64,000 bases of DNA, from the IMG/VR virus record IMGVR_UViG_3300037400_003528, positions 64,001 to 128,000 of that record. One strand, written 5' to 3'. The stretch is from a virus. This document shows, piece after piece, positions 44,977-59,508 of this stretch. A program made the translations under genes and the position numbers. The first letter of the stretch is position 1. Every line of letters begins with the position of its first letter. Under the pieces are notes generated by a model, which did not search any database, was not told the DNA's origin, and saw nothing but the letters and a program-made list of their open reading frames with translations.

Positions 44977-45002
44977 TGGGTTAAGTAATAAAATACTTAA
45001 CC
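44977..45002. terminator. bidirectional terminator (gggttaagta/tacttaaccc)
   Basis: 10-bp perfect stem with a 6-nt loop, A-run upstream and T-run downstream. Confidence 0.7.
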
Positions 45003-45014
45003 CCTTTTTAAGAA

Positions 45015-45323
45015 TTATTCCATTTCTGGAACAAGTGCGCGGCCCGATTCTGTTAACTTAACAAATTTTACAGATTCATGTTTGATAGAGCCATCTTTTT
45101 GCTCAATTTCTAGTTCGCCTTCAACTCTCTTTGCCCAAGGATCTTTTACCTTTTCTCCATCAACATCTTTCATATGACGAACGAATGCACCAGTAATAAT
45201 ACCATTTACCTGTCTGGGATCTAATCCAAGTGCTGCGGCAATATCCTTTGCAGTAATATCCTCATCTTCATGCTGTTTTAGATACTGAAATACATTATAA
45301 GTGTTTTCCTTAAATTTAACCAT
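45015..45323 (-). CDS. HTH DNA-binding protein, putative transcription regulator (102 aa, no TAG)
   Basis: 'DITAKDIAAALGLDPRQVNGIITGA' is helix-turn-helix-like. The gene has its own consensus promoter and terminator. Confidence 0.5.
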   Translation of the reverse strand: MVKFKENTYNVFQYLKQHEDEDITAKDIAAALGLDPRQVNGIITGAFVRHMKDVDGEKVKDPWAKRVEGELEIEQKDGSIKHESVKFVKLTESGRALVPEME

Positions 45324-45370
45324 TTGTTTTTTCTCCTTTGAAATATATATTTTTTATTTTCATTATAAAA

Positions 45371-45399
45371 ATTATACTAAAAATTTTTATATTTGTCAA
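45371..45399 (-). promoter_or_regulatory. sigma70-like promoter TTGACA-17-TATAAT (minus strand)
   Basis: Minus-strand reading is 'ttgacaaatataaaaatttttagtataat'. Confidence 0.7.
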
Positions 45400-45575
45400 A
45401 CATTTTTAAAATATTGATCCACTATATCATTAATCTACAGTACTTCTGGAAATGATAGTTTAGATAATATTGTTTGAATTTCCTTCATTGTAGTATAATC
45501 TTTAGGATCATTTTTTAATTTTTTCTAAAGGTCTATAATTTGACCTGCCAATATTTGTAATTCTTTTTTATCCAT
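45396..45575 (-). CDS. small hypothetical protein (59 aa, 2 TAG, ends TGA)
   Basis: A short frame read through TAG. Confidence 0.3.
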
Positions 45576-45587
45576 TATTATTCCTTT

Positions 45588-47564
45588 TTAAAAATTATTA
45601 ACTATAGATAATAATTCTTCTTCATTAATAATTTTTACACCTTTTTCTTTTGCTTCTTTATTTTTTGTTGAAGAAGAATTAATATCATTATTTACTAAAT
45701 AATTTGTTTTTTTAGAAATAGAACCCGTTACTTTTCCGCCATTTGATTCAATAAACGTTTTAAGTTCATTTCTATTTTTAAAAGATTGTGTTTTACCTGT
45801 TAAAACAAAAATTTTATTTTGTAACGGTTTTATTTCTTTCTCTTCTGTATCAGGTACTGATGAAATAATTTCAACTATATAATTATCAAAAATACTATCG
45901 GCTTCTGTATAATTAAAAGTAGTAAGAGTTTTTATCATAACTTCACCAATACCCTTGATATTATAGAGTCTATCATCTTCATCAGGGAAATCAACAGCAT
46001 GTCTAAATCCATTATAGGTATGATATACTTTAATTAAATCTTCTGAAGCTACTTTACCTATCTGCGGAATACCAATTGCCGCAATAAATTTAGATGCTGT
46101 ACAATTTTTACTTTCTTCTATTGCTGTTAAAATTTTGTCAACAGAAGCCATACCGAAACCATCTTTTTCAATCCATTCATTACGATGCTCTTGTAATTTA
46201 AAAATATCTTCTAATGAATTAATCCATCCCCAATCAATAAGTTTTTCAAGAGTTTTTTTAGATAACCCTTTTATATCAAGTCCCTTTTTACCGCAGAAAT
46301 GGTCAAGACGATTAATTAATTTACCTGAGCACGCAGGGTTTGTACAATAAAGAACTTCACTATCATAATCTTTTCTTATTTCAGTAGGACTTCCACAATA
46401 AGGACACACTTCAGGAATAGGAATTAATGGAACATTATCAGGTTTATTTATTTGAACATAAGCTACTTGTGGTATAATTTGATTTGCTTTATAAATATAA
46501 ACCCTTTGTCCTGAGAAAGCTCCTTTCATAATGTTTTTCATAACAGAAATATTATGAAGACTTGCTCTATTACAAATAGTTCCATCAATATCAATATCAT
46601 TATAAATTAGTACGGGAGTTAATTGTCCTGTTCTTCCCATAGTCCATTCAATATCTTTTACTTCTGTTTCATATTCATCATCGTAAAATTTATAAGCAAT
46701 CCCGCCTTTAAAGTGATGATCGGTACGACCTGCTGCTTCATATTCAGCAATATTATCATATTTAAAAACAATTCCATCAATAGGATAAGATTCTTCTTCA
46801 CACATGCTCTTTATATCATTAATGACATTTTCATAATCATAATTATGTTTATTAAAATATTCATCATTTAAAAAAGGAACTGTAAGAAACTTCCAAAACA
46901 TTAAAGTAGTAAGAGTATTTGTTAAAAATACAGCTTTTGGTTCTACAATATCCCAAGCCACAAAAGTAAGATTACGTTTCTCACACTCTTTTGAATCTAA
47001 AAGTCTTATGCTACCACTTGCAAAATTTCTTGGGTTTTTATAAGAACCTTTAAAAGCTTCAAAATTTTTATAAGTACAAATAATTTCGCCATCAACAATA
47101 ACTTCTTTTGTTTTTATTGGTATATGTTTAGGAATGGATGGAATTACCATAGCATTATGGGTTATATCTTCTCCTATGATACCATTTCCTCTTGTCTCTG
47201 CGGATACTAATTCTCCATTAACGTATCGTAAAGAACAAGTAAGACCATCCATTTTAGCCATAGCAATCCATTCTTTATTATTAAGGAATGTTTTAATTTC
47301 TTCTATATCTTTTGTTTTTTGAAGAGAAAGCATAGGATGATTATGAGTAACTTTTCTTAATTTATTAACTACACTATAATGAATTGATTGTGTGGGAGAG
47401 TCAGGATAAATAAGATTAGTTTCTTTTTCAAGTTTTTCTAATTTACCGTACATTATATCCCATTCCATATCAGTAAGATATGGTTCTCCTTTATCATAGG
47501 CTTCTGTTGCTTGATTTAATTTATTTATAAAAGTTCTTATATCTTTTGAATTATTTATCATCAT
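45588..47564 (-). CDS. ligA: NAD-dependent DNA ligase LigA (658 aa)
   Basis: Adenylation domain, Zn finger 'CPYCGSPTEIRKDYDSEVLYCTNPAC' and a C-terminal BRCT-like region. No TAG. Confidence 0.85.
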   Translation of the reverse strand: MMINNSKDIRTFINKLNQATEAYDKGEPYLTDMEWDIMYGKLEKLEKETNLIYPDSPTQSIHYSVVNKLRKVTHNHPMLSLQKTKDIEEIKTFLNNKEWIAMAKMDGLTCSLRYVNGELVSAETRGNGIIGEDITHNAMVIPSIPKHIPIKTKEVIVDGEIICTYKNFEAFKGSYKNPRNFASGSIRLLDSKECEKRNLTFVAWDIVEPKAVFLTNTLTTLMFWKFLTVPFLNDEYFNKHNYDYENVINDIKSMCEEESYPIDGIVFKYDNIAEYEAAGRTDHHFKGGIAYKFYDDEYETEVKDIEWTMGRTGQLTPVLIYNDIDIDGTICNRASLHNISVMKNIMKGAFSGQRVYIYKANQIIPQVAYVQINKPDNVPLIPIPEVCPYCGSPTEIRKDYDSEVLYCTNPACSGKLINRLDHFCGKKGLDIKGLSKKTLEKLIDWGWINSLEDIFKLQEHRNEWIEKDGFGMASVDKILTAIEESKNCTASKFIAAIGIPQIGKVASEDLIKVYHTYNGFRHAVDFPDEDDRLYNIKGIGEVMIKTLTTFNYTEADSIFDNYIVEIISSVPDTEEKEIKPLQNKIFVLTGKTQSFKNRNELKTFIESNGGKVTGSISKKTNYLVNNDINSSSTKNKEAKEKGVKIINEEELLSIVNNF

Positions 47565-47761
47565 GCTTCATAATCCTCATAATTTCTATTAACAGATTCT
47601 CCGCAAAAAGGACAAATAGCTGTAATGTACAACTCATTTCTCCAATTATTACGAGTGTAAGAAGAGTTGTCTGCTTCAAAAATACAATCACATTTAGAAC
47701 AAATAAAACGTTTTGTTTCGTTCATTTTTTTTAAAGAACCATCTTTAATAATTTTAATCAT
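47561..47761 (-). CDS. small Zn-ribbon protein (66 aa)
   Basis: 'CSKCDC...CPFCG'. Confidence 0.45.
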   Translation of the reverse strand: MIKIIKDGSLKKMNETKRFICSKCDCIFEADNSSYTRNNWRNELYITAICPFCGESVNRNYEDYEA

Positions 47762-49797
47762 AGTACAATTACGGATTGAACCGTACTCCTTTCTATAATT
47801 TTTGTACCAGAACCATTTTTAGATTGTTCAGATAATTCAGATACAGTTGTACAAATAGAATTAGGTTTACCTACTACTAAAATAGAATCATCTTCTTTTA
47901 ATGGAGCAATAGAAGCTATATAATCATTTTTTTCAAGAGGAATAATATTAATACCTCTACCGTTTCTTTTTTGAATAATAAAGTTATTTATATCTACTTT
48001 TTTACTATTGCCATTACAAGTAAAAACTCCAAGATAACTAATATCTTTAGAAATATAAAAAGCAGAAACTACTTCATCATTTTCTTTTAAAGCAATTCCT
48101 TTTACACCGCTTGTAGCTTTCCCAATAGGTTTAATATCATCTGTTGGTACTTTTATAACATTACCAAATTTAGTAGCAAAAATAACATCTTCTTTATTCA
48201 TAAAAGTAACTGATAATAATTCATCCCCATCTTTAATTTTAATAGCTTGAATACCTGTTGACTTTTTTATAGAAATATATTCTTCTATTTTAGTCTTTTT
48301 TATTAAACCATTTTTAGTAAAGAAAACTACATAATTCGCAGGCTTTTCTCCAGAAATAGCTGTAGCTGTTTGAAACACTTCATTATCAGCAAAAGGAAGA
48401 AGTAAATGTAAATTAGTTCCTCTTGAAGCATTAGTTCCTTCAGGAATTTTATCTACCGCTAATTTATACATTTTACCTTTTGATGTAAATATCATTAAGT
48501 CATCAAGAGTATTAGTAGATATGGTCGTTTTGATTGCGGCATCCACAGTTTTTACACCTTTACCGTTTCTTTTTTGTATTCTAAAACTCTTTTTAGGAAT
48601 ACGTTTAATATCTCCGGTATGGGTAATAATAACTACGACATCTTCAGGAGTTATATCAATTTTTTCTTTTTCTTCTTTTACGTCGTCAATTTGAGTTAAC
48701 TCTGTACGACGTTTATCTCCATATTTATTAACCAAATCCGCCAAACGAACTTTTAACAAATCTATTTGTTCTTCTTTACTATTGATAAGGCTTTCCCATT
48801 TTTGAATATTATAAACTAATTCATTTCGCTCTTTTTCTAATTCTACACCTTCTAATTTTGCTAAACTTGAAAGTCGCATAGCAAGAATGGCTTTTGCTTG
48901 ATTCTCGGTAAAGCCCCATTTTTCAATAAGGGAGATTTTTGCTGTTGCTCCAGACTCACTTTGTTTGATAAGAGCAATGATTTCGTCAATATGAATAATG
49001 GCTCTAAGTAAACCATCAACAATTTCCTTTCTTAATTTAGCTTTTTCTAAATCAAATTGAGTTTCTTTAACGATACATTCGAGATTATGGTCTACATAGA
49101 TTTTTATAGCATCCCGCAAGTTTAATTCAGTAGGAGTTTTATCTACCAAAGCTACCTGATTATAACTAAATGAAGTTTGAAAATTAGTTTTTGCATAAAT
49201 TTGTTTTGCAATTGCATCAGGTGAAAAACCTTTTTGACATGTTACAACAATTCTAATTTCTTTAGAACTTTCATCATGTATATCATGAATACCTTTTATT
49301 TCTTCCTTGTCACAAATTTCACCAAGTTCTGTAATTAATCCTTCTATTGTAGTTCCATATGGAATTTCATAAAAGATAATTTTATTTTTATCTACTTTAT
49401 AACGTGCTCTAATTTTTACAGAACCATGTCCCGTTTCCATAATTTTAGGGATGTCATTTTTATTAATGATTAATCCCCCAGTAGGAAAGTCAGGACCAGG
49501 CAACATAGGAAGAGCACCATCCAAATAATTATATATGGCTTGACCAACATCATACAGGTTGTGAGGAGCCCAGTTACAGGCCATCGCAACACCAATACCA
49601 GTATTAGGATTACAAAGCAAATTAGGAAAGGTACAAGGGAGAGTAATAGGCTCTTTAAGACTTTCATCATAATTTGAGATAAAATCAACGTTATTTTTCT
49701 TAATTCCATTTAACATACCTTCTTCTGATATTTTACTAAGGCGGGCTTCGGTATAACGTGCGGCAGCAGGTCCATCACCTGTAATATTACCATTATT
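47758..49797 (-). CDS. type II DNA topoisomerase A subunit (GyrA/T4 gp52-like), exon 2
   Basis: Begins 'NNGNITGDGPAAARYTEARLSKI', the catalytic-Tyr region of GyrA. It continues as the supplied ORF 47758..49716. Confidence 0.75.
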   Translation of the reverse strand, partial: NNGNITGDGPAAARYTEARLSKISEEGMLNGIKKNNVDFISNYDESLKEPITLPCTFPNLLCNPNTGIGVAMACNWAPHNLYDVGQAIYNYLDGALPMLPGPDFPTGGLIINKNDIPKIMETGHGSVKIRARYKVDKNKIIFYEIPYGTTIEGLITELGEICDKEEIKGIHDIHDESSKEIRIVVTCQKGFSPDAIAKQIYAKTNFQTSFSYNQVALVDKTPTELNLRDAIKIYVDHNLECIVKETQFDLEKAKLRKEIVDGLLRAIIHIDEIIALIKQSESGATAKISLIEKWGFTENQAKAILAMRLSSLAKLEGVELEKERNELVYNIQKWESLINSKEEQIDLLKVRLADLVNKYGDKRRTELTQIDDVKEEKEKIDITPEDVVVIITHTGDIKRIPKKSFRIQKRNGKGVKTVDAAIKTTISTNTLDDLMIFTSKGKMYKLAVDKIPEGTNASRGTNLHLLLPFADNEVFQTATAISGEKPANYVVFFTKNGLIKKTKIEEYISIKKSTGIQAIKIKDGDELLSVTFMNKEDVIFATKFGNVIKVPTDDIKPIGKATSGVKGIALKENDEVVSAFYISKDISYLGVFTCNGNSKKVDINNFIIQKRNGRGINIIPLEKNDYIASIAPLKEDDSILVVGKPNSICTTVSELSEQSKNGSGTKIIERSTVQSVIVL

Positions 49798-50987
49798 CTA
49801 ATCGTTATTAACCATAGGCTTTTTGTCCTATGCTCTGGAGGTTTCCCTCATTTTCATCGAATAGTTAATTCTATTCCAGTATAGCATATCTTTTTAACAT
49901 AATAAACTCTGTTATTATACTACCCGTTAGCGCGGACTCTTGGAGATATTATATTCTTAAATTCGCATTTAAGGTTCAATCTCTATGCGTTGCGTTTGAC
50001 TATATTATTACATATAGCCTTCAATCTCTGATTAGGATGACTAAACCCTTCCAGTTTAATTCCGCGCTGATCATTCTAAATTAATTGGTAGTTTCATTTA
50101 GAACGGCATAATTTTTAACTAAGTCAAATTTTCTTTCAAGATATAATTGATTTTCATTCTCTAATATGTTATGGTAAAATTTTATTATTCCATCTTTATT
50201 AGAAATTCTTAATCTAAAAATAGAATTTATTTGATCTAATTCAATTGGATTAATTTTTATTGTTTTTTCAAGATATTCTTTAATAGATTCGCACAACTCT
50301 TTTGTTCCTGAAATACCTATTTCATGACTATTTTTAGAAAAATAACACCAACCATCCCCGTCGAAAATACCCCTAATAAAAGCATTTTGTAATTTTTCAT
50401 TGTTAAAATTATACATAGGCTCATGATTTAAAGAAATTTTATTTGGAATAATTCCATATTTTAATATTGCATTACACATTTCTCTACTTGAAATGGTTAA
50501 ATTAGCAATAGAATTTTGTTTTCCTTCTGTGAAACCAGAACCATTTTCAATTTTTATAGGAATATTACTTTTTAAACACTGATTGAATTTTTCAAGAATA
50601 GATTTATCATCAGCTTTTAGTCTAAATCGAATAGTTGTTCCAGTATTATTTCCATCTGCTAATAAAAAACCTAACCAGTATGCTTTTTCAGCAGTATCAA
50701 TTTTATTAAAGTATGTTCTATTATAAGAATATTTTTCTCTTTTTGATCGGGAAGGAATATTTAATGCTTTTAGTTTATTATAAAAGGTGCCTCGATCAAT
50801 ATTAAATTTTTTAGCTACATCTGTAGTTGATTCTTCTTCATTTTCTAAATAATACTAGAGAGCTTGTTTATAAGTTTCATTCATTTTAATCATATAAAAT
50901 ATCTCCTTTTTATTTTTGATATTTTATATAAAATTTTACCATAGAAATTTAATCAATTTTTACCTTGAATGTTAAAAATTTTTATTT
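49798..50987 (-). other. putative group I intron (~1.19 kb) splitting the topoisomerase A-subunit gene
   Basis: Exon 1 ends '...RYPLIDWHG' and exon 2 begins 'NNGNITGDG', reconstructing the GyrA motif 'YPLVDGQGNFGS.DGDGAAAMRYTE'. The 3' segment 49798-50080 is GC-richer with P7/P8-like pairings (agtata...tatact) and a terminal G. An endonuclease ORF is embedded. Confidence 0.5.
50081..50893 (-). CDS. intron-encoded LAGLIDADG homing endonuclease (270 aa, 1 TAG)
   Basis: Motifs 'WLGFLLADGN' and 'FIRGIFDGDGW' are present, with its own RBS 'aaaaggagat'. Confidence 0.8.
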
Positions 50988-51287
50988 ACCGTGCCAATCT
51001 ATAAGAGGGTAACGCATAACCCAAGGTTGAGAAAGACGAACCATTGCTCCATAGATTGAACTGTCTCCATGAGGGTGATATTTACCCATAACATCACCAA
51101 CAATTCTTGCCGCTTTAACGTGAGGCTTAGATGAAGTCCGCCCTTCTTCAAATGCTGACCAGAGAATACGTTTTGCAACAGGTTTAAGGCCAGATTTGGC
51201 ATCAGGAATTGCTCTGTCGGTATTAACAGCTACCGCATATTCTATAAAGTTTGTACTTAATTCTTTTGTTAAATCATTCTGTATCAT
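50988..51287 (-). CDS. type II DNA topoisomerase A subunit, exon 1 (100 aa)
   Basis: 'RAIPDAKSGLKPVAKRILW...GKYHPHGDSSIYGAMVRLSQPWVMRYPLIDWHG' matches the GyrA N terminus. Confidence 0.75.
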
Positions 51288-51522
51288 CTATTACCTCATA
51301 TTCTATGCTATCAATCCCACCATAATCTTCTACACTATAGTCATCTATAACTAAATCTAAATCATGAAGAATCTCTTCTTCGTAAACAAATTTTTTAGGA
51401 TTTTCTTGAAGTCTTTTAAACTCTTCTGCTGTTAATTCTAAAACACCCTCTTTATGTCCATAACGAAGATGTCCTACTACATATTCTAATGGAATATCGA
51501 ATTTTACTTTTTTATTCTGCAT
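51274..51522 (-). CDS. small acidic hypothetical protein (82 aa)
   Basis: Starts at an internal ATG with an RBS, overlapping the GIY-YIG gene end. Confidence 0.4.
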   Translation of the reverse strand: MQNKKVKFDIPLEYVVGHLRYGHKEGVLELTAEEFKRLQENPKKFVYEEEILHDLDLVIDDYSVEDYGGIDSIEYEVIDDTE

Positions 51523-52063
51523 TATAAGTAGCCTCCTTACCAATAAACTCCCATCGTAATGGCTCTCCTGTAATAGGATGTTTACCATTTGTTTTTAATC
51601 TTCCTTTTCCATTAGCAACTTGTCTAATGTGGTTTCGATCTCCTCCCTTGCACCATTCTGCAGCTCTACTGGCATTATCAAAAATTTGACCAGTATTTAT
51701 ACAACGTATTTTTTTACCTTTTCCATAATTAGGATGTTTTTCTCCAGATAAATTTTTAGAAATTTTTTCTTTTGTTTCTTCTGATAAGGCTCCTTGAGAA
51801 CTAGCATTTCTTATATTATAACCAAACTGTTTATTTTGAGTATTAAATAAATTTATATATTCTTGTTCTTTGAGGTTAGCTTCTTCTAAAGTTAAGTTAC
51901 TTTCTAAAATTTTAACTGAAAAGTTATCCCAACCATATTTTTGAATGGCCTAGTAAAAAGCAACACAATTTTTATACTTTTTACCTTCTTTACCTGACCT
52001 TTGGTACAAAGAAGAACAAGTTTGTCCAATATATTTTTTATGATTTATTTTATTTTCATACAT
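51512..52063 (-). CDS. free-standing GIY-YIG endonuclease (Seg/I-TevI-like), 183 aa, 1 TAG
   Basis: 'KKYIGQTCSSLYQRSGKEGKKYKNCVAFY.AIQKYGWDNFSVKILE' is a GIY-YIG core. Located between the topoisomerase subunit genes. Confidence 0.7.
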
Positions 52064-52096
52064 ATATATTTTATATATATTCATTAATTTTTCCCT

Positions 52097-53995
52097 TTAA
52101 ATAAGACATTGTGCTTCTATACTGTGTTCTTTAATAAATACTTTTCTCGGAATAATAGCAGTTCCCATTAAATCATCAAATAATTTATCTGTTTCTTCGC
52201 TATCATCAATCGTAATTTGTTTAATAATTCTATTAGCAGGATTTGTAAGAGTCTCTTCTATTTGTTCAACATCCATTTCTCCTAATCCTTTCATACGATT
52301 GACTTGATACTTTCCCGTATAAGTTTTTCTAAATGCTTCAAGGTCATCATCATTCTTTAAATATTTATAACCTTTATTTCCACCAAGAGTAATTTTATAA
52401 AGAGGTGGAACTCCAGCATAAATGATACCGTCATAAATCAATTGAGGACAAAAGTTCCAAATAAAAGTATAAAATAGATTTTTAATATGAGCACCGTCTA
52501 CGTCAGCGTCACTCATAATAATAATTTTACCATAGCGGAGTCCATCACGGTCATATGTAACCCGCATTGTTTTTGTATCAATCTTTAAACCAAACGCTTC
52601 AATCATAGTCATAATCTCAGCATTTTTTTGAATCTTATCTAAGGTAGCTTTTTGTGTATTAAGGATTTTACCACGGACAGGCATTACAGCTTGAAATTCA
52701 TTATTACGTGCCGTTTTTAAACCACCTGCCGCACTATTTCCTTCAACAATATAAATTTCACATCTTTCTCTATCTTCACTATAGCAGTCCGCAAGTTTAC
52801 TATCAAATTTTAAAGCCTTTTCTTTTTTCTTTCCTTGCTCTCTTGCTTTTTCTCTTGCCTTTTTAGCAGCTTCTCTTGCTTTTTTAGCATTAATAGCTTT
52901 GTCTGCAATAAGTTTAATTTCTTTTTCATTATTAGCTAACCAATATTGAAGATTTTCAGTTAAAGCTACATTAAAAGGTTTCATTTCAATTTTAGTAATA
53001 CGAGTTTTAACTTGTGCATCATATGATACATTTGGAGCAGTAATATTAAAAACAATATACATACCTTCTTGTATATCATCACCAGTTAAATTTTCATCTG
53101 TGGATTTAAGCCATTTCTTTTCTTTAAAAAATTTGTTAAATTCACGAGTAATAATAGATTTTACTTGTGTAATATGTTGTCCAGTTTCAGTTAAGCCAGT
53201 ATTAACATATGGAACAATAGTAGATGAATAATTAGAAGTATAGGTAAGAACCATATCCATTTTATTCTTACCTTCTGCAAAATTCATATCAAATCTATTA
53301 TTAATAAGTTCTTTATTTCCAACTGCGGCATCAACTAAATCATTTAAACCTTTATTAGATATATAGTCATATATCTTACCATTCTCATTTAAATGAATTG
53401 TTAATCCGGGGCATAGACAAGAAATAGTTTTAAATAAAGAATGAATTTTATTACTTTCTACTTCTGTATGAGTAAAAAATTCCTCTGAAGGTTGCCATTC
53501 TACTAATGTACCAGATACGCCGCCTGCGCCAGTACTTCTATTTTGAAAAACACCTTCTTTAAAATATATTTCTTCCCATTCTCCGTTTCTTATAGTTTTA
53601 ACTCTTAGCCAATGAGATAAAAATGTAGTAATTTTAGAACCAATACCAAAAGAACCTAATGAAGTTCCTTCATAAGTTCCATCTTCTCTATATTTACCAG
53701 AAGTATTAAGAACACTAAAAGCAGCTTCAAGAATTGTTTTATCGTCTTCTCTAAAATGATTTGGAAGAAAACCTTGTCCATAATCTCTTACAGCAAAAGT
53801 ATCTCCAATTATCGTTACATCAATTTGATTACCATGTCCAAGTCTAAATTCATCAATTGCATTAGAAACAATTTCTATGAGCAACTGAGTTGAATACGTA
53901 GTATCACCTGCATATACACCTGGTTTTAATCTGGTAAATTGTAATGGATCTAATGATTCTATTGATTGTTCTGTATATAAGGTTTTATCTATCAT
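52097..53995 (-). CDS. type II DNA topoisomerase ATPase/TOPRIM subunit (GyrB/T4 gp39+gp60-like), 632 aa
   Basis: Supplied ORF with a GHKL ATPase N terminus and TOPRIM 'EGNSAAGG'. Confidence 0.85.
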   Translation of the reverse strand: MIDKTLYTEQSIESLDPLQFTRLKPGVYAGDTTYSTQLLIEIVSNAIDEFRLGHGNQIDVTIIGDTFAVRDYGQGFLPNHFREDDKTILEAAFSVLNTSGKYREDGTYEGTSLGSFGIGSKITTFLSHWLRVKTIRNGEWEEIYFKEGVFQNRSTGAGGVSGTLVEWQPSEEFFTHTEVESNKIHSLFKTISCLCPGLTIHLNENGKIYDYISNKGLNDLVDAAVGNKELINNRFDMNFAEGKNKMDMVLTYTSNYSSTIVPYVNTGLTETGQHITQVKSIITREFNKFFKEKKWLKSTDENLTGDDIQEGMYIVFNITAPNVSYDAQVKTRITKIEMKPFNVALTENLQYWLANNEKEIKLIADKAINAKKAREAAKKAREKAREQGKKKEKALKFDSKLADCYSEDRERCEIYIVEGNSAAGGLKTARNNEFQAVMPVRGKILNTQKATLDKIQKNAEIMTMIEAFGLKIDTKTMRVTYDRDGLRYGKIIIMSDADVDGAHIKNLFYTFIWNFCPQLIYDGIIYAGVPPLYKITLGGNKGYKYLKNDDDLEAFRKTYTGKYQVNRMKGLGEMDVEQIEETLTNPANRIIKQITIDDSEETDKLFDDLMGTAIIPRKVFIKEHSIEAQCLI

Positions 53996-54033
53996 AGAAT
54001 TAAATTTTATCCTTTCTATAATTTTCTATAATA

Positions 54034-54062
54034 ATTATAGCAAAATTTTTATAAAAATGCAA
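54034..54062 (-). promoter_or_regulatory. promoter TTGCAT-17-TATAAT (minus strand) for the topoisomerase operon
   Basis: Minus-strand reading is 'ttgcatttttataaaaattttgctataat'. Confidence 0.6.
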
Positions 54063-54088
54063 ATGCTTTTTTCTTTGTTTAAGAAAAT

Positions 54089-54116
54089 TTGACATCTCAA
54101 AAATTTTTGATATAAT
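54089..54116 (+). promoter_or_regulatory. promoter TTGACA-16-TATAAT (plus strand), divergent from the 54034-54062 promoter
   Basis: Sequence 'ttgacatctcaaaaatttttgatataat'. Confidence 0.6.
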
Positions 54117-54122
54117 ATAAAA

Positions 54123-54220
54123 AAAGAAAATAAATGACAAAAGTGCGTCTACATTTATATACATATATATCAACAGACAAAAATAAGTGTGTAGTAATAT
54201 TACTACACACTTATTTTTTA
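54123..54220 (+). ncRNA. candidate ~100-nt small RNA (promoter to strong terminator), no convincing RBS/ORF
   Basis: Bounded by the 54089-54116 promoter and an 18-bp perfect hairpin plus T6. Confidence 0.3.
54181..54220. terminator. strong bidirectional terminator (18-bp perfect stem aaataagtgtgtagtaat/attactacacacttattt)
   Basis: Palindrome flanked by an A-run and a T-run. It lies downstream of the endolysin on the minus strand. Confidence 0.8.
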
Positions 54221-54322
54221 TATTATTTCAACATATCTGAAATTAACAAATCCATAAATTTTATTATTAATTTTCACATAATACCAAGTAGTACCATTGC
54301 TTGCTTGAATACTATCACAAAT

Positions 54323-55687
54323 CTAAATAATTTTGTCTTTATAGATATAAGGAATACTTTTTAAAGGATTAAATTCAACCCCTGCCCAGCTTCTTACATA
54401 TAGTGCATTTGCTGTAACTTTAGCTTTAGCATAAGTATCTCGGGCGGGAGACACTTTACCTGTTCTTGTAAATTTAGTTTTAGATGTTGCAATTAATTTT
54501 TTATCAGTATTAACGGGTTTTTCGGGCATCACCTTCTCCGAAGATTGAGGTGCTGCCGCCGCATTCGCATATTTAGGTATAGCATATCCACGAATATTAC
54601 CATTAGCAACTTGTAATGTACGTCGCGCCACCACTCCGCCATTACCTGTATTTCCTTCTATTGTTATGATAATATTTCCCTCAACCTTTTCAATAATACC
54701 AATATGATCTGCAAAACCGTCATTTGGTTGAGTGCCGTCATCCCAATTATAGGTTATAATCCAGCCTGGTTGAGGAGTAACTGAACCATTCTATTCCCAA
54801 ATACCAGCTTTTTTAAACAATTGAATATGTCTCTAAACACCACATTCAGTTCCACCAATTAAATCGACGGCGTTATTCTTAATAAAAGCCGCAGAAAGAG
54901 TAGTATCACAATAGTCATCAGTATATTTAACTTTATAACCAACGGCAAGAGGTTTATGATTATTATAAATATCAATAATATCTCTATGTGTTTGTTTAGC
55001 CATACTTTTTCCAATCCATTCTGCCATTGTGTTAATTATATCTTGCGCAGAAGTACCTTTAGTCTAAACAGATTTTTCCTCTTTCTTTTCCTATTGCTCA
55101 TAGTAGAAATTCATATCTACATTACCTGAAATACCATTTACTTTACCTTTACTTGTATATTGATGATAAACGCAATCATAATGAGGTGTAGTATTATAAT
55201 CCGCTAACCATATAATATATTTTTTTATGGTTGCCGCATCATACCAATTTTTATAATAGTCTTGATTTAAATAAAAACCTACTTTATATCCTTTGCTTTT
55301 AATATAATCACAAAAAACATTGGTAAAATTAATGCAATCAGTTTTTGTTAACTTAACTTTTTTTTCTCTGGCATTATTAACCGTATCATATTCAAAATCG
55401 TAAAAAACAATTATGTCTTTTCCTAACCCTGCTTTCTAAATATTTTTTATACAACTTTTTGCTTCTTCTATTGCATCATTTTTATTTAAAGGATAAGCAA
55501 AATGATAAACACCATGAATATTTATATTAGCTTCTTTAAATTTTTTTACGTTGTTTAAAAAATATTTATCAATTTGTTTTCTATATCCCTAACGAATAAT
55601 AACAAAGTTTATACCATCTTTTTTTACTTTTTCGGCATTTATATTATTACCTTGATGCTAAGAAATATCAATTCCTTTTAAAGCCAT
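54323..55687 (-). CDS. endolysin: GH25 muramidase + CHAP-like peptidase + SH3b-like cell-wall binding (454 aa, several TAG)
   Basis: N terminus 'MALKGIDIS.HQGNNINAEKVKKDGINFVIIR.GYRKQ...GVYHFAYP' is GH25-like. The middle 'GWIITYNWDDGTQPNDGFADHIGIIEKVEGNIIITIEGN' is CHAP-like. The C terminus is SH3-like. RBS 'gaaaggagac' precedes the start. Confidence 0.75.
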
Positions 55688-55704
55688 TTTGTCTCCTTTC
55701 TAAA

Positions 55705-55740
55705 TAAAAAAGCGGGAGATCACTCTCCCGCTTCTTTTTG
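55705..55740. terminator. GC-rich hairpin (agcgggaga/tctcccgct) overlapping the holin stop codon
   Basis: 9-bp stem with loop 'tcac', flanked by A/T runs. It sits between the holin and endolysin genes. Confidence 0.65.
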
Positions 55741-55956
55741 TTCTATCATATTTTCTGAAAGTTTAACTTCTGGAAGTCCTGCTAAACTAGTCATAATTGA
55801 AAGGATACCTGCTGTACAAGCTACCGATGCTACATAAGCCCAATCTACTTCTCTAAAAGCTGCTCCCACCGTAATCATAGAGGCAAAAGTTTGAGCAAAA
55901 GTTTTTAATGCTCTAATACCAGCCGCCTTAATCCATATTTTAGATTTTTCACTCAT
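55720..55956 (-). CDS. holin (78 aa, two predicted TM segments)
   Basis: The hydrophobic segments 'MITVGAAF' and 'VASVACTAGILSIMTSLAGL' are separated by a short linker. The gene is immediately upstream of the endolysin. Confidence 0.6.
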   Translation of the reverse strand: MSEKSKIWIKAAGIRALKTFAQTFASMITVGAAFREVDWAYVASVACTAGILSIMTSLAGLPEVKLSENMIEQKEAGE

Positions 55957-56002
55957 AGTAAAATTCCTCCTTTTTTATATATATACTTAAAAAAGATTTA
56001 TT

Positions 56003-56470
56003 TTACTTTTTATTATTTTGACCTTTCTTTTCTTTAATTTGAGTTAAAAGAAGTTTTCTATGTTCTAAATCTTTATCAATATTTTGGATTTGTTCTTTTA
56101 AAAATTTAATATTATTGGTATGATTTCTAATCATAAAATAGAATCTATTTTCAAGTAATCTTGTTATAGCAAAACAAGTATAATTATCTCCATTATAATT
56201 TTTTACAAAAGGTAAAATATCTTTCTTAACTTCTCTTTCTATTGTTTGGAGTATTAGTCTTTCTCGTTTTAATTCTTCTTTATAAAATTTTTTTGTTGCT
56301 TTCATTTCAGCAATAGATAATCCAGAAAGTTTACTTTGAACTTCTTTATCTTCAGGATGGACTTTTGCTACTCCCTTAAATATACCTCTTTTAGTTTTTA
56401 TTGTTACAATAGATACTCCTGTATTTGGGTTAAAATTAGAATTAAAAAGTTTTGTTTTTAATTGTCTCAT
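56003..56470 (-). CDS. hypothetical protein (155 aa), possibly a regulator
   Basis: Supplied ORF; basic and Lys-rich. Confidence 0.35.
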   Translation of the reverse strand: MRQLKTKLFNSNFNPNTGVSIVTIKTKRGIFKGVAKVHPEDKEVQSKLSGLSIAEMKATKKFYKEELKRERLILQTIEREVKKDILPFVKNYNGDNYTCFAITRLLENRFYFMIRNHTNNIKFLKEQIQNIDKDLEHRKLLLTQIKEKKGQNNKK

Positions 56471-56576
56471 TATTTTTTTTGCTCCTTATTTTTATAATAT
56501 AATTTTTAATAATATATAAACTCATTTCAACAAAAAGAGTTCCAAAAATTCCTACTAAAACTGGATTTACAATCAT
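56442..56576 (-). CDS. small hydrophobic peptide (44 aa)
   Basis: 'MIVNPVLVGIFGTLFVEMSLYIIKNYII...'. ATGA-coupled to the phosphoesterase stop. Confidence 0.3.
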   Translation of the reverse strand: MIVNPVLVGIFGTLFVEMSLYIIKNYIIKIRSKKNNETIKNKTF

Positions 56577-57115
56577 TCTTTTTTCTCCCTATATTTATTA
56601 ATATCTTCAATTATTTGTTCTATTGATACAGGATAACAATTATGAGCATCCATTGCTACATTATAAATACTATATTGTCCAAATTCAAATTTATTAGAAC
56701 TATGAGTATGTCCAGATAGATTCCAAAAGAAACGTTTTTCTTCAAAATTACCTACAAGAGTAGGATAATGAGAAAGATAAAACATTTTCTTTTTATTATA
56801 TTTATAGATTGAAGCAAAACCAAGATATGTCATACCATATTCTGTTTGATATTTATTAAGTTTGTTATTTGTATCATGATTACCCCAAATAACATTTTTT
56901 TCTCCATTTAATACTTTATAGACACGATTCCATTCTTTTTCATTTCCGCTCATACATAAATCGCCAAGAATATAAACAGTATCTTTTGGAGTAATAATAC
57001 TATTCCATCTTTTTAAGATTTCTGTATCATGTTCTTCTATTGAAGAAAAACCGCGCGGCTGCCAGAGAAAATTTTTATCGTGTCCAATATGGAGGTCTGC
57101 TGTAAAATAAATCAT
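56573..57115 (-). CDS. calcineurin-like metallophosphoesterase (180 aa), putative 3'-phosphatase of the RNA-repair cassette
   Basis: 'DLHIGHD', 'GDLCMSGNE' and 'GNHD' motifs. Confidence 0.7.
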   Translation of the reverse strand: MIYFTADLHIGHDKNFLWQPRGFSSIEEHDTEILKRWNSIITPKDTVYILGDLCMSGNEKEWNRVYKVLNGEKNVIWGNHDTNNKLNKYQTEYGMTYLGFASIYKYNKKKMFYLSHYPTLVGNFEEKRFFWNLSGHTHSSNKFEFGQYSIYNVAMDAHNCYPVSIEQIIEDINKYREKKE

Positions 57116-57118
57116 TTT

Positions 57119-57607
57119 TTAATTCCTTTTTAGTGGAACCAATTGATCGTTAACATAAGTAAAAATCATATCAAATGGTTCATTATAAGTAGGTGGTTTT
57201 AAATGTGTATACATATTATATATCTCGTTGGGCGGGACATAAGTTTTAGTTCCTTTTCTAAGGTCATTTCTTTCTAAGCATACTTCAATCGGAGTATTAA
57301 TATATATTGCAATAATATTAGTTTTATGACGATTAATATGGAGTTGATTAAGAAGTTTATAACGACTTTTTGGATTTAAATGGGTAGCATCCGCAATAAC
57401 ATCTTCCCCATTATTAATATGAAGATTTATTTCTTCAAGAAAAGTTTTATACACTTCTTTTTCTTTTGCGAAATAATTATCGTGTTCATTTAATAATGAA
57501 AATCTAATGACATCTCTTGATATATGAATTTTTTTAGGTTGAGCTTTTGCAAAAGTAGTTTTTCCAGACCCAGGAACTCCTATCATAATAAATAAATTAT
57601 TTTTCAT
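57119..57607 (-). CDS. P-loop polynucleotide 5'-kinase (Pnk kinase-domain-like), 162 aa
   Basis: Walker A 'GVPGSGKTTFA', a size typical of the T4 Pnk kinase domain, and adjacency to the phosphoesterase and RNA ligase. Confidence 0.6.
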   Translation of the reverse strand: MKNNLFIMIGVPGSGKTTFAKAQPKKIHISRDVIRFSLLNEHDNYFAKEKEVYKTFLEEINLHINNGEDVIADATHLNPKSRYKLLNQLHINRHKTNIIAIYINTPIEVCLERNDLRKGTKTYVPPNEIYNMYTHLKPPTYNEPFDMIFTYVNDQLVPLKRN

Positions 57608-57633
57608 TTCTTCTCCTTTATTATAACATAAAA

Positions 57634-57672
57634 TTTTATAAAAGGCAAAAAAGTTATAATAACCTTTTTGCC
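57634..57672 (-). terminator. hairpin + T-rich terminator between the RNA ligase and kinase genes
   Basis: Sequence 'ggcaaaaa...tttttgcc'. Confidence 0.5.
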
Positions 57673-57679
57673 TTTTATT

Positions 57680-58915
57680 TTAATTATGATATGTCATCAA
57701 AAATTCATTAGAAACAGCTTTAAAAGATTGAGTTCCATCTTCTGACCGAAATACAATACCTTCACGCATATCTTCGTCAATTTGAGATTTATCAGTAGCA
57801 TAATCAAGCAATTCTTCAACAGTATCAGGGAGAATGAATTTACTATTTACAATAGGGACACAAGGAATATTGTAATAATCTTCAAGCAGTTCTCTCATTT
57901 TAAGAGTATTAAATCTTCCTTTGTCAGAAGTAATAAGATTAAATGCCATAAAATCATGACCAGTTAGATGATAATCTCTTTTTTGTACTCCTGCTCCATA
58001 AGTTTCACCCTGGATAGTAATCCATTCTGCGGCCGGAAATAACGATAGCATTTCAATAAGAGCATGTTCAATATGATACTTTTCCGCCATTTCTGTATAA
58101 ATATTAGTTTCATAAAAACATGTTTTATCAGGCTTATCAAAGCAGACATTACGAGAACAAACATAAAATTCATTTTTATGAGGCCACTTTCCACGTTTGA
58201 TAGTAAAAGTAGTTGAAGAACCATCAATCTTTTCTGTTGCAATCCAAGGGTTCTTATCTTTAAGAATCCAAGGCATATTTTGGATTCTTTCTTCATCAGT
58301 TTTCTTTACCCAAGTGGGCCAGCCTGTTTTGTCTCGCTTTCTACCAAAGAAAATAAAAAGAAGTTTCTTACCCCAGTCGCGCTTCATAAGCCAGCGGAAA
58401 GGCTGCTTTGAAAACAATTTTCCATTACGCTGTGCCATTTTTTTATATTTATCTACAGAAGAGGTCTTACGTTCATTATCTTCTGCTACATAATAAGTTA
58501 CTCCAAGCTGTTTAGTAAGAAAACGAGAATCATTTCCAGCATTGTGTTCAACCCCATTAGAGTCATGAATAGAATAACCATAATTATGATTTTCAATAGT
58601 CCAATTAAGATTAGCAGCAGATATAAGTAAACCTTGACTTAATGATTTACACATCTTTTGAGTCTTTATACGATATTTCTTTTTAACAAGAAAAGTCATA
58701 TCAGTAAAAGGTTCTACTTCAGGAAGTTTTGAATCAATCTCAAAGTAAATAGCGGGGTCACCCACTTTAAATTCACCCTTACCGACAACGATAGTCCATC
58801 CGCCAACGTGCGCCAATTCAACTCTATCGTATCCTTCAATTGGAGTAATATCATCAATAGTTACGACATACGCAAGTTCTCTTTCGTTAGTTTTTGGATT
58901 AAGCAAAGTAGTCAT
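57680..58915 (-). CDS. RNA ligase (nucleotidyltransferase motif I KxDG), 411 aa
   Basis: 'WIATEKIDGSSTTFT' gives motif I. The remainder is covalent nucleotidyltransferase-like. Confidence 0.7.
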   Translation of the reverse strand: MTTLLNPKTNERELAYVVTIDDITPIEGYDRVELAHVGGWTIVVGKGEFKVGDPAIYFEIDSKLPEVEPFTDMTFLVKKKYRIKTQKMCKSLSQGLLISAANLNWTIENHNYGYSIHDSNGVEHNAGNDSRFLTKQLGVTYYVAEDNERKTSSVDKYKKMAQRNGKLFSKQPFRWLMKRDWGKKLLFIFFGRKRDKTGWPTWVKKTDEERIQNMPWILKDKNPWIATEKIDGSSTTFTIKRGKWPHKNEFYVCSRNVCFDKPDKTCFYETNIYTEMAEKYHIEHALIEMLSLFPAAEWITIQGETYGAGVQKRDYHLTGHDFMAFNLITSDKGRFNTLKMRELLEDYYNIPCVPIVNSKFILPDTVEELLDYATDKSQIDEDMREGIVFRSEDGTQSFKAVSNEFLMTYHN

Positions 58916-59069
58916 CTCCTTTCATATTTTCTTCAAAAATAATTCTTTTTATAAAAAATAGTTTTTCTTTATCATTTAAAAAATCTGCTTTTAGAATTTT
59001 TTTAATTTTATTTAATTGATATTCCATTTTGATATAAGTAGGGTCTTCATCAGGGTCAAACATTCCCAT
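58899..59069 (-). CDS. small hypothetical protein (~56 aa)
   Basis: Internal ATG with RBS 'ggaag'. Confidence 0.3.
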   Translation of the reverse strand: MGMFDPDEDPTYIKMEYQLNKIKKILKADFLNDKEKLFFIKRIIFEENMKGDDYFA

Positions 59070-59245
59070 TATTCTACTTCCTCCCAAGTGAAATCAATAC
59101 GATTAAAAATTATATCTACGGCTGCATCAAAAACAAGACGAGGAAGTTCTGCTTCTGATATATCTCCGTTAATTGTAACTATATCTACATCATCAGGAAC
59201 TCCCGCCCAAGGATAACCAATTCTAATTTTTATCTTTTTTTCCAT
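59069..59245 (-). CDS. small hypothetical protein (58 aa)
   Basis: TAATG coupling with the upstream gene. Confidence 0.35.
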   Translation of the reverse strand: MEKKIKIRIGYPWAGVPDDVDIVTINGDISEAELPRLVFDAAVDIIFNRIDFTWEEVE

Positions 59246-59508
59246 TAATCTTCTTCCTTTCCAAGGAAAATTATAAACTCTTCGAAATGTAAATTTAATA
59301 TTTCATCTTCAACATAAAAAATATCTTTTCCATATGTAGTATGATACCAATCTATAAAGATAGATAAAAGTTGACCCATTCGTAATTCAGGACATTTCAT
59401 ATGTAAAAATTTAAAATCGTCCCATAAACTCATAATTTCTATCATTCTTTTACGACAGTTTTCATCATTTTTATTATTAATAGCGTTAAGTCTTAAATTA
59501 TTTTTCAT
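59245..59508 (-). CDS. hypothetical protein (87 aa)
   Basis: Supplied ORF; first gene of the minus-strand module. Confidence 0.45.
   Translation of the reverse strand: MKNNLRLNAINNKNDENCRKRMIEIMSLWDDFKFLHMKCPELRMGQLLSIFIDWYHTTYGKDIFYVEDEILNLHFEEFIIFLGKEED

What the first reader, a model, noticed from the sequence alone, without database searches (positions are those of the whole stretch)
54034..54226. Divergent promoter pair producing a ~100-nt terminated transcript with no credible ORF
A plus-strand TTGACA-16-TATAAT promoter (54089-54116) is followed within about 70 nt by an 18-bp perfect hairpin and T6 (54181-54220). The only ATG-led frame has no RBS and runs through the terminator. This looks like a small RNA (regulatory, or antisense to the endolysin 3' end) or a transcriptional insulator between the topoisomerase and lysis operons.
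Basis: inference. Interest (0 to 1): 0.5.

Follow-up and report, generated by a model that had tools for sequence, protein, structure and literature searches.

The report
Conserved gene-less promoter facing lysis terminator
Between a phage's lysis genes and its topoisomerase gene sits a strong promoter with no gene behind it, which should make only a 55-100-base RNA before hitting the lysis genes' own terminator. A whole clade of uncultured relatives has kept this arrangement, so it is probably a small boundary or antisense control element rather than chance.

Summary
A 12/12 TTGACA-16-TGnTATAAT promoter lies at 54089-54116 (+). Sixty-two nt downstream is a perfect 18-bp hairpin with a T6 run (54179-54219). 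The promoter stands back-to-back with the topoisomerase promoter (54063-54034, -).

Two points of context change. First, this phage reads TAG as a sense codon, so the endolysin (GH25-CHAP-GW, 54218-55687, -) ends at a TAA that touches the hairpin. The hairpin is therefore first of all the bidirectional terminator of the lysis cassette. Second, lysis and topoisomerase genes are co-directional, not divergent.

The plus-strand promoter belongs to the phage's own promoter family. It is the only family member with no gene after it, and the only one pointing against 36 kb of minus-strand genes.

All 22 relatives in one monophyletic clade that still have the upstream region keep the same three parts in order: lysis-cassette terminator, reversed 11-12/12 promoter, forward promoter. 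The hairpin and leader sequences differ completely among lineages, and the leader is 16-68 nt long.

There is no conserved ORF, seed, extra structure, iteron or GC-skew change.

Best reading: a real, short, non-coding transcription unit that acts in cis, like lambda pO/oop. Its existence is well supported; its function is inferred.

Side finding: TAG appears to encode Glu, not Gln, in this lineage.

The parts
54089..54116 (+). Orphan sigma-70/sigma-A-type promoter P(+): -35 TTGACA 54089-94, A5T5-rich 16-nt spacer, extended -10 TG 54108-09, -10 TATAAT 54111-16. Predicted start about 54123.
   Evidence: 12/12 match. 3 perfect sites in the window vs 0.19 expected. Member of the window's promoter family. 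Kept at 11-12/12 in all 22 clade loci that have the upstream region.
54123..54222 (+). Predicted non-coding transcript of about 100 nt: purine/A-rich leader (54123-54178) plus terminator hairpin and U-tail.
   Evidence: Inferred from promoter and terminator geometry. Fold z = -5.9, driven by the hairpin. No Rfam family. No consensus structure other than the terminator. Relatives predict 54-69 or 91-103 nt.
54179..54219 (.). Bidirectional intrinsic terminator: 18-bp stem (G/C-containing core 54187-54210), loop ATAT, A5 (54179-83) giving the U-tract for the minus-strand lysis transcript, T6 (54214-19) giving the U-tract for the plus-strand RNA.
   Evidence: T-tail scores 4.0 (+) and 3.8 (-). Every lineage has its own, different, stable hairpin at this position, dG -13 to -21 kcal/mol.
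54218..55687 (-). Endolysin (GH25 + CHAP + GW wall-binding domain, 489 codons, 8 in-frame TAG). Its true stop TAA at 54218-54220 overlaps the T-run of the hairpin.
   Evidence: Pfam hits span the TAG codons; the GW domain covers residues 422-486, across the TAG at 54323-25. That in-frame TAG is conserved in the close relatives and is replaced by D or E in more distant ones.
54034..54063 (-). Forward promoter of the topoisomerase operon, P2(-): TTTGCA-18-TGnTATAAT, back-to-back with P(+), with 25 nt between the two -35 hexamers. It is followed by SD AAGGA and the ATG at 53995.
   Evidence: An equivalent extended -10 promoter lies 25-77 nt from the reversed promoter in every clade member.
54112..54140 (-). 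Mirror-image minus-strand promoter-like site (TTGTCA-17-TATTAT) sharing the -10 with P(+). Predicted starts are 18 bp apart (54123 vs 54105).
   Evidence: The geometry matches symmetric bidirectional promoters (PMC10268837). The minus -35 is kept only in the closest clade, not in L009-type or short-leader lineages, so it is not the conserved element.
52097..53995 (-). GyrB/ParE-like type II topoisomerase subunit (632 aa, no TAG), the first gene downstream of the module.
   Evidence: Pfam DNA_gyraseB, Toprim, DNA_gyraseB_C.

Best explanation
This is a real, conserved, gene-less transcription unit at the boundary between the lysis cassette and the topoisomerase/replication operon.

A host-type (sigma-A/sigma-70) promoter of the phage's own promoter family fires against the direction of all neighbouring genes. 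After about 100 nt (55-100 nt in relatives) it is stopped by the same bidirectional hairpin terminator that ends the lysis cassette.

The product is a short non-coding RNA made of a purine-rich leader plus the terminator hairpin. It is the exact complement of the 3' end of the lysis-cassette mRNA.

The most likely action is in cis, as with lambda pO/oop. Two routes are possible and are not mutually exclusive:
- Head-on transcription or a promoter-bound polymerase limits read-through from the lysis cassette into the replication genes.
- Antisense pairing with the 3'-terminal hairpin affects the fate of the lysis mRNA.

Shown: the promoter and terminator anatomy, membership of the promoter family, absence of a gene, and clade-wide conservation of the architecture despite sequence turnover.

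Inferred: that the promoter is active, the RNA ends, and the cis mechanism.
For: 1. Promoter quality and family. The site scores 12/12 with an extended -10. Perfect sites are 16-fold over chance. The family motif TTGACA-N5-6-AAAAATTTTTG-N-TATAAT gives 7 further hits against 0.08 expected. Nine other family-type promoters each sit 25-50 nt before an SD plus ATG; only this one has no gene.

2. Conservation. On a topoisomerase tree, every locus carrying a reversed 11-12/12 promoter next to the lysis-cassette terminator falls in one monophyletic clade. All 22 clade loci that have the upstream region carry it.

3. Sequence turnover around it. Hairpin sequences are unrelated among lineages yet all are stable (dG -13 to -21) with T-tails on both sides. 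The leader is 16-27 or 62-68 nt long.

4. Background. Antisense promoters of this quality occur at 0.095 per kb in the loci. Apart from one unrelated weaker site in L024, the class 'orphan promoter plus terminator' occurs only at this site.

5. Neighbours. The upstream gene is always the last gene of a lysis cassette: an endolysin, or a small holin or holin-like membrane protein. A forward extended -10 promoter always lies 25-77 nt behind the reversed one.

6. Capacity to express a gene. In L039, basal in the clade, the same unit carries a real 39-codon ORF with an SD. The unit is therefore a working expression slot, and the promoter has been kept in 21 loci that have no ORF.

7. Precedent. 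Lambda pO makes the short oop RNA, which is antisense to cII. Convergent pO activity lowers pR transcription into the replication genes (PMC3985674).
Against: - There are no transcript data. The phage is uncultured, and its topoisomerase is less than 36% identical to anything in GenBank phages.
- The overlap with the lysis mRNA is only the stop codon plus the terminator hairpin. That hairpin is locked in a stable intramolecular stem with a 3-8-nt A/U loop, which is a poor start for antisense pairing.
- The minus-direction terminators already look strong, so extra insulation is not obviously needed.
- Sister clades in which an endolysin is followed by hairpin, forward promoter and an RNase H gene do without a reversed promoter.
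- SD-like purine tracts in the leaders, and the L039 ORF, suggest the unit began as the promoter of a small reverse gene. Some retention could therefore be historical.
Confidence: 0.45

Rival explanations
1. Divergent-promoter coupling. The reversed promoter is kept because of what it does for the adjacent forward topoisomerase-operon promoter, for example local negative supercoiling, polymerase recruitment or competition. The short RNA is a by-product that the terminator simply disposes of.
For: The reversed and forward promoters stay together in every lineage, 25-77 nt apart. Insertions (210 nt, about 370 nt, about 1.1 kb) always fall downstream of the forward promoter, never between the pair. 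The downstream gene is a type II topoisomerase.
Against: The spacing between the two -35 elements varies three-fold, and no conserved operator lies between them. A 55-100-nt untranslated unit should generate little torsional stress (established twin-domain reasoning; inference). Nothing here distinguishes this rival from the boundary model.
Confidence: 0.15
2. Vestige. The promoter once drove a small reverse-strand gene, as still seen in L039. The gene was lost and the promoter has no present function.
For: L039, basal in the clade, has a 39-codon Cys-rich ORF with an SD between the reversed promoter and the hairpin. The L018 leader (ATTAAAAGAGGGAG) resembles the L039 5'UTR, and several leaders keep SD-like purine tracts.
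Against: All 21 gene-less loci, spanning up to about 20% topoisomerase protein divergence and with unalignable leaders and hairpins, still have 11-12/12 promoters. That is as good as or better than the functional forward promoters beside them. Neutral decay should have destroyed some.
Confidence: 0.15
3. Trans-acting regulatory small RNA that base-pairs with host or phage mRNAs through its 5' leader.
For: The unit has its own strong promoter and terminator. The first 20 nt or so of the leader (ATAAAAAAG(G)AAA(A)TAA) are invariant among the long-leader lineages. Lytic Gram-positive phages do make intergenic small RNAs of unknown role (phage K, PMC9241854).
Against: The leader shrinks to 16-27 nt with different sequence in six lineages. 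No consensus structure exists besides the terminator. The leader is purine-rich (SD-like), not the pyrimidine-rich anti-SD type. No Rfam match.
Confidence: 0.08
4. A micro-ORF or leader peptide starting at ATG 54134 is the functional product.
For: The ATG is preceded by AAGGAAAA in L005 and AAAGAAAA in the window, and MTKV is shared by the window, L001-L005 and L019.
Against: The ATG is ATA in L008 and is absent in the L009 group and in all short-leader lineages. L005 is frame-shifted relative to the others. The window ORF runs through the terminator with no stop in the RNA.
Confidence: 0.04
5. Replication origin whose leading strand is primed or activated by the short transcript, in the manner of T4 ori, T7 ori or ColE1.
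For: A strong promoter sits next to replication genes, with an alternating-AT stretch (TATATACATATATAT, 54155-54169) in the long-leader lineages. Lambda oop was once proposed as a primer (PMC3985674).
Against: There are no direct repeats or iterons. GC skew shows no inflection at 54 kb; the switches are at about 22.8 and 59.5 kb. The AT stretch is missing in short-leader lineages. An A-rich RNA makes a weak RNA:DNA hybrid (inference).
Confidence: 0.04
6. A chance promoter-like sequence in AT-rich DNA next to an ordinary terminator.
For: The genome is 28% GC, and weak promoter-like matches are no more frequent than in shuffles (26 found vs 25.2 expected at 9/12 or better).
Against: Perfect matches are 16-fold enriched. 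The site carries the family-specific spacer. It is conserved in position and orientation across a whole clade.
Confidence: 0.02

Closest known systems
Bacteriophage lambda pO promoter / OOP RNA (77-nt antisense RNA between cII and the replication genes O-P)
   Same: A constitutive host-type promoter points against the flow of the operon and lies between an upstream gene and the downstream replication genes. It makes a very short RNA that ends at an intrinsic terminator, and that RNA is complementary to the 3' end of the upstream gene's mRNA. The convergent promoter also lowers transcription arriving from upstream (PMC3985674).
   Different: No sequence relationship. Here the overlap is only the stop codon plus a shared bidirectional terminator, not tens of nt of coding sequence. 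The upstream gene is a lysis gene, not a lysogeny regulator. The host is Gram-positive-like. The leader length is not conserved. Function is untested.
Bidirectional intrinsic terminators between convergent transcription units / excludon-type 3' overlaps
   Same: One hairpin flanked by an A-tract and a T-tract ends transcripts from both strands. The two RNAs overlap at their 3' ends (concept in PMC12288877).
   Different: One of the two 'genes' is only a promoter plus leader with no coding sequence. The overlap is confined to the terminator itself.
Symmetric bidirectional promoters (Warman et al. 2021, as described in PMC10268837)
   Same: In the window, TATAATA lets -11A/-7T coincide on both strands. 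Predicted starts are 18 bp apart, and there is a -35-like hexamer on each side.
   Different: The mirror -35 is not conserved outside the closest relatives, whereas the plus-strand promoter is. Symmetry is therefore a local feature and does not explain the conserved element.
Intergenic small non-coding RNAs of lytic Gram-positive phages (e.g. Kayvirus K snc RNAs)
   Same: Short transcripts with their own promoters in intergenic regions of a large virulent phage of a low-GC host; function unknown (PMC9241854).
   Different: Those were detected by RNA-seq, whereas this one is only predicted. There is no sequence similarity. This one has a defined, conserved position at the end of the lysis cassette.

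Membership tests
Sigma-70/sigma-A extended -10 promoter | -35 TTGACA, 16-18 nt spacer, TGn, -10 TATAAT | tested here: met
   12/12 with TG at 54108-09. Enrichment of perfect sites: 3 vs 0.19 expected.
Sigma-70/sigma-A extended -10 promoter | Drives transcription initiation | not testable with these tools
   No transcript data. Indirect support only: nine other family-type promoters precede genes, and the reversed promoter is conserved at this position across the clade.
Bidirectional intrinsic (Rho-independent) terminator | Stable G/C-containing stem-loop followed by a T-run on both strands | tested here: met
   18-bp stem, -21 kcal/mol. Tail scores 4.0 (+) and 3.8 (-). The same holds in 11 other lineages.
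Bidirectional intrinsic (Rho-independent) terminator | Lies immediately after a stop codon; structure kept while sequence changes | tested here: met
   Endolysin TAA 54218-20 overlaps the T-run. Stem sequences are unrelated in different lineages, and all pair.
Lambda OOP-type cis-antisense RNA | Own promoter convergent to the upstream gene and own intrinsic terminator, yielding a short RNA | tested here: met
Lambda OOP-type cis-antisense RNA | Substantial overlap with the coding 3' end of the target mRNA | tested here: not met
   The overlap is the stop codon plus the terminator only. It is therefore an analogue, not a member.
Lambda OOP-type cis-antisense RNA | RNase III-dependent cleavage of the target / reduced transcription from upstream | not testable with these tools
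   Needs experiments.
Trans-acting base-pairing sRNA | Conserved single-stranded seed region | tested here: not met
   Leader length and sequence differ among lineages. Only the terminator is a consensus structure.
Any curated RNA family (Rfam 15) | Match at gathering score | tested here: not met
   0 hits in the window. The best sub-threshold hits are generic hairpin matches, at most 24 bits against cut-offs of 43 bits or more.
Small protein gene | Start codon, frame and stop conserved among relatives | tested here: not met
   ATG lost in L008, absent in the L009 group and short variants, frame shifted in L005. The exception is L039, which has an unrelated 39-codon ORF in the slot.
Symmetric bidirectional promoter | Reciprocal -11A/-7T, divergent starts 18 bp apart | tested here: met
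   TATAATA at 54111-54117 gives predicted starts at 54123 (+) and 54105 (-).
Symmetric bidirectional promoter | Both directions conserved | tested here: not met
   The minus -35 TTGTCA occurs only in the window, L001-L006 and L019; it is TTGTTA in L008 and absent in more distant lineages.
Transcript-primed replication origin | Iterons or an unwinding element, and a strand-composition switch | tested here: not met
   No direct repeats. No skew inflection at 54 kb.
Type I toxin-antitoxin | Small hydrophobic toxin ORF overlapped by the antisense RNA | tested here: not met
   No such ORF on either strand in 53996-54226.

The most novel reading that the evidence does not exclude
The unit is a dedicated lysis-timing device of stop-codon-recoded phages. 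An abundant short RNA made by host polymerase is the exact complement of the protective 3' hairpin of the holin-endolysin mRNA. It (or the head-on polymerase that makes it) keeps lysis-cassette expression low, acting alongside the TAG codons that gate endolysin translation, with the effect lifting late in infection. This would add a second, RNA-level layer to recoding-based control of lysis.
Probability: 0.15. Interest if true: 0.6.

Novelty: new member of a known kind. Interest (0 to 1): 0.4.

Why it matters
If the promoter is active, this is a cleanly defined, clade-conserved example of a phage keeping a promoter that has no gene. The position and orientation of the promoter are under selection, not the sequence of the RNA it makes. 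That separates 'transcription as the function' from 'RNA as the function', which is rarely possible for phage small RNAs.

It also sits exactly where the one recoded gene in its 14-kb stretch, the endolysin, meets TAG-free replication genes. It may therefore bear on how recoded phages time lysis.

In practice, it shows that annotating such phages with the standard code misplaces gene ends and makes terminators look like free-standing RNA elements.

Tried and rejected
- Rfam at gathering thresholds on the whole window, and at permissive thresholds on 53900-54400: only generic hairpin noise.
- tRNA/tmRNA scan: none, so the RNA is not a tRNA-like or suppressor gene.
- DNA search of GenBank phages: no match. 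By protein, the topoisomerase is less than 36% identical to anything there, so no annotated relative could be used.
- Exact look-up of the topoisomerase protein in public assemblies: not on record.
- RNAalifold on 10 alignable relatives: no structure besides the terminator. MAFFT mis-registers the outer stem, so per-lineage folding was used instead.
- Small ORF at 54134: rejected because the ATG is lost and the frame is not conserved.
- 'By-product of a symmetric promoter': rejected because the mirror -35 is not conserved.
- Origin of replication: no iterons and no skew change.
- The inverted repeat 54107-54124 / 54214-54231: judged an AT-rich coincidence of -10 plus A-run against T-run plus stop region.
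- tblastn for the L039 small protein elsewhere: only the self-hit.
- PDB alignments of the NrdD-like and RecJ-like proteins, to find which residue TAG stands for: uninformative, because the TAG codons fall at variable positions. The guanylate-kinase-like protein and the relatives were informative.

Full report
**1. What is at the coordinates**

- TTGACA (54089-54094), a 16-nt spacer ending in TG, and TATAAT (54111-54116) form a 12/12 extended -10 promoter on the plus strand. It is the best site in 52-56 kb.
- Sixty-two nt further on is a perfect 18-bp hairpin with a 4-nt loop (54179-54218). A5 precedes it and T6 follows it.
- A transcript from about 54123 to about 54222 would be about 100 nt. 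It folds at -26.1 kcal/mol, z = -5.9, and almost all of that energy comes from the hairpin.
- Weak promoter-like matches are at chance level in this 28% GC DNA (26 found vs 25.2 expected). Perfect ones are not: 3 in the window vs 0.19 expected, with no shuffle reaching 3.
- The only ATG-led frame (54134-54364) lacks a real RBS and runs through the terminator.
- A minus-strand TTTGCA-18-TGnTATAAT promoter (54063-54034) lies back-to-back with the plus promoter and precedes the SD and ATG of the topoisomerase gene.

**2.

The window is a phage that reads TAG as a sense codon.
- Treating TAG as sense raises the total length of long ORFs from 12.6k to 21.9k codons and fuses the fragmented structural genes.
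- Read this way, the endolysin is a 489-codon GH25-CHAP-GW protein (54218-55687, minus strand) with 8 in-frame TAGs. The GW-domain match runs across the TAG at 54323-54325 to the end of the protein.
- That TAG is kept in frame in the close relatives and is replaced by D or E in more distant ones.
- The true stop is therefore TAA 54218-54220, inside the T-run of the hairpin.

Three consequences follow.
- The hairpin is first of all the intrinsic terminator of the lysis cassette: an r1t-type holin at 55720-55956 followed by the endolysin. It is bidirectional, with good T-tails on both sides.
- Every gene from 22.8 to 59.5 kb is on the minus strand. Lysis and topoisomerase genes are therefore co-directional, and the plus promoter points head-on at the end of the lysis cassette.
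- The endolysin is the only TAG-containing gene between 54 and 59.5 kb. The replication genes downstream, from 45 to 54 kb, are nearly TAG-free.

**3. The promoter belongs to a family, and is the odd one out**

- The window contains a repeated promoter type, TTGACA-N5-6-AAAAATTTTTG-N-TATAAT: 7 further hits vs 0.08 expected.
- Nine other family-type promoters sit 25-50 nt before an SD and start codon. They begin at 6742 (+) and at 23383, 32200, 37149, 43154, 45399, 54063, 57648 and 59576 (all -).
- The site at 54089 is the only one with no gene, and the only one opposed to the local gene direction.

**4. Relatives**

GenBank phages hold nothing close. IMG/VR holds many contigs of up to about 165 kb whose topoisomerase is 70-93% identical.

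On a topoisomerase tree, every locus with a reversed strong promoter forms one monophyletic clade. All 22 clade loci that include the upstream region show the same three parts in the same order:
- the hairpin terminator of the last lysis-cassette gene;
- a reversed promoter scoring 11-12/12;
- a forward extended -10 promoter 25-77 nt behind the reversed one.

The upstream gene is one of three kinds:
- an endolysin;
- a roughly 100-aa membrane protein that follows a GH25/CHAP endolysin;
- an LL-H-type holin.

Hairpin sequences are unrelated among lineages (GGTGTGTAGTA, GGAGGTAG, AAGGGGAATAGT, AAAGGACAAATAG, GAGGGTAAGTAG, AAGGTGGA, GGGTAAACAGA, AAGGCAAGTAG). All are nonetheless stable, at -13 to -21 kcal/mol.

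The distance from the -10 to the hairpin falls in two classes, 62-68 nt and 16-27 nt. These give predicted RNAs of 91-103 and 54-69 nt.

Antisense promoters of this quality occur at 0.095 per kb in these loci. Apart from one unrelated weaker site in L024, the class 'orphan promoter plus terminator' is found only at this site.

Insertions in some relatives (210 nt, about 370 nt, about 1.1 kb) always lie downstream of the forward promoter, so the promoter pair stays together.

More distant relatives have a different arrangement: endolysin, hairpin, forward promoter, RNase H gene. They lack the reversed promoter.

**5. What it is not**

- **Not a protein gene.** The ATG is ATA in L008, is absent in the L009 group and in all short variants, and L005 is frame-shifted.
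- **Not a known RNA family**.
- **No second conserved structure**.
- **No conserved seed across lineages**.
- **Not an origin by the available signs.** There are no iterons and no GC-skew inflection; the switches are at about 22.8 and 59.5 kb.
- **Not explained by promoter symmetry.** In the window the -10 is symmetric (TATAATA), and a mirror TTGTCA gives a minus-strand promoter with the 18-bp start spacing typical of bidirectional promoters. That mirror -35 is not conserved in deeper lineages, so it does not explain the conservation.

**6. Origin**

- L039, basal in the clade, has a real 39-codon Cys-rich ORF with a strong SD between the reversed promoter and the hairpin.
- The L018 leader resembles the L039 5'UTR, and several leaders keep SD-like purine runs.
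- The gene-less units therefore probably arose by loss of a small reverse gene.
- The promoter has nevertheless stayed at 11-12/12 in all 21 gene-less loci while leader and hairpin sequences turned over. This argues for selection on the promoter itself.

**7. Mechanism**

Shown: a family-type promoter, no gene, a shared bidirectional terminator, and clade-wide conservation of position and orientation but not of RNA sequence.

Inferred: the unit acts in cis at the lysis/replication boundary. The closest model is lambda pO/oop, a short RNA from a promoter convergent to the upstream operon. It is antisense to the 3' end of cII, and pO activity lowers pR transcription entering the replication genes (PMC3985674).

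I give about 0.8 to 'a short transcript is made' and 0.45 to the cis boundary/antisense mechanism. The rivals are:
- coupling to the forward promoter (0.15);
- a functionless vestige (0.15);
- a trans-acting sRNA (0.08);
- a micro-ORF (0.04);
- an origin primer (0.04);
- chance (0.02).

Points against the favoured reading are the small overlap with the lysis mRNA, which is confined to a locked hairpin, and the already strong minus-direction terminators.

**8. Verdict**

- The element is a new, unnamed member of a known kind: a phage cis-antisense or convergent-promoter unit.
- It is of moderate interest, mainly because the comparative pattern isolates promoter position as the selected feature.

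**9. Side finding**

At alignment columns conserved among relatives, TAG codons of this lineage fall on Glu, not Gln.
- The window alone has 8 Glu columns and 0 Gln.
- Across the genomes that group with it, the tally is 24 Glu, 4 Asp, 3 Lys and 0 Gln in 36 columns. This matches the profile of GAA/GAG and not that of CAA/CAG.
- A separate set of related genomes shows 7 Gln and 0 Glu.
- In the guanylate-kinase-like ORF (27638-28192), TAG aligns with the Glu of the FIEWA motif in yeast guanylate kinase, which by my own recollection of the structure is the guanine-binding Glu69.
- The literature I could search reports only TAG to Gln for such phages.
- The genome classes were defined from the same data, and no suppressor tRNA was found. 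This needs independent confirmation.

Noticed in passing
whole window; e.g. 27638-28192 (-), 54218-55687 (-), 7449-16214 (+): TAG is a sense codon here, and in this lineage it appears to stand for Glu rather than the usual Gln. At conserved columns the window's TAGs fall on 8 Glu and 0 Gln. Related genomes of the same class give 24 Glu, 4 Asp, 3 Lys and 0 Gln in 36 columns, like GAA/GAG. A sister set of genomes gives 7 Gln and 0 Glu. In the guanylate-kinase-like ORF, TAG aligns with the Glu of the FIEWA motif of yeast guanylate kinase (Glu69 by my recollection). The papers I searched report only TAG to Gln in such phages. No suppressor tRNA in the window or in 60 related loci.
   Followed up: yes
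54218-55687 within 45000-59500: The endolysin (8 TAG) is the only TAG-containing gene between 54 and 59.5 kb, and the replication genes from 45 to 54 kb are nearly TAG-free (0-2 TAG per gene). This fits the published idea that recoding gates translation of lysis genes (10.1101/2021.08.26.457843).
   Followed up: partly
55710-55733: A second G/C-rich hairpin (AAGCGGGAGA-GTGA-TCTCCCGCTT) has T-runs on both strands. It overlaps the holin stop codon, about 20 nt before the endolysin SD. It looks like an internal terminator or attenuator between holin and endolysin, so the endolysin gene is bracketed by two bidirectional hairpins.
   Followed up: partly
47758-51287 (-): The GyrA-like gene appears to be split. 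An N-terminal piece (50982-51287) ends ...PLIDWHGK. The rest (47758-49815) begins ...NGNITGDGPAAARYTEARL. An ORF carrying LAGLIDADG-type motifs (50081-50893) lies between them, which suggests an intron with a homing endonuclease. There was no Rfam group I intron hit at gathering score.
   Followed up: partly
51512-52084 (-): A free-standing ORF with GIY-YIG-type motifs lies between the GyrB-like and GyrA-like genes. The call rests on the motifs alone.
   Followed up: no
L039:2267-2436 (reverse strand of the locus): In this basal relative the reversed promoter drives a real 39-codon Cys-rich ORF (MRKKEVRKCDNCIYYNWYYDWCKKWKCEKNERSVCI.FI) that ends at the bidirectional hairpin. It has no homologue in the other 80 sequences searched.
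   Followed up: partly
L001:1905-2112, and the equivalent regions of L006, L008, L019: A roughly 210-nt insertion carrying a small ORF (MIYIMSYPTDE...) with in-frame TAGs lies between the forward promoter and the topoisomerase start codon in four close relatives.
   Followed up: no
56573-58906 (-): Just upstream of the lysis cassette lie a metallophosphoesterase-like ORF, a P-loop kinase-like ORF and a ligase-like ORF with a KIDGSS motif. Together they resemble an RNA-repair set (kinase, phosphatase, ligase). This rests on motifs only.
   Followed up: no
7449-16214 (+): With TAG read as sense there is one continuous ORF of 2921 codons containing 92 TAGs. Under the standard code it breaks into many fragments.
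   Followed up: no
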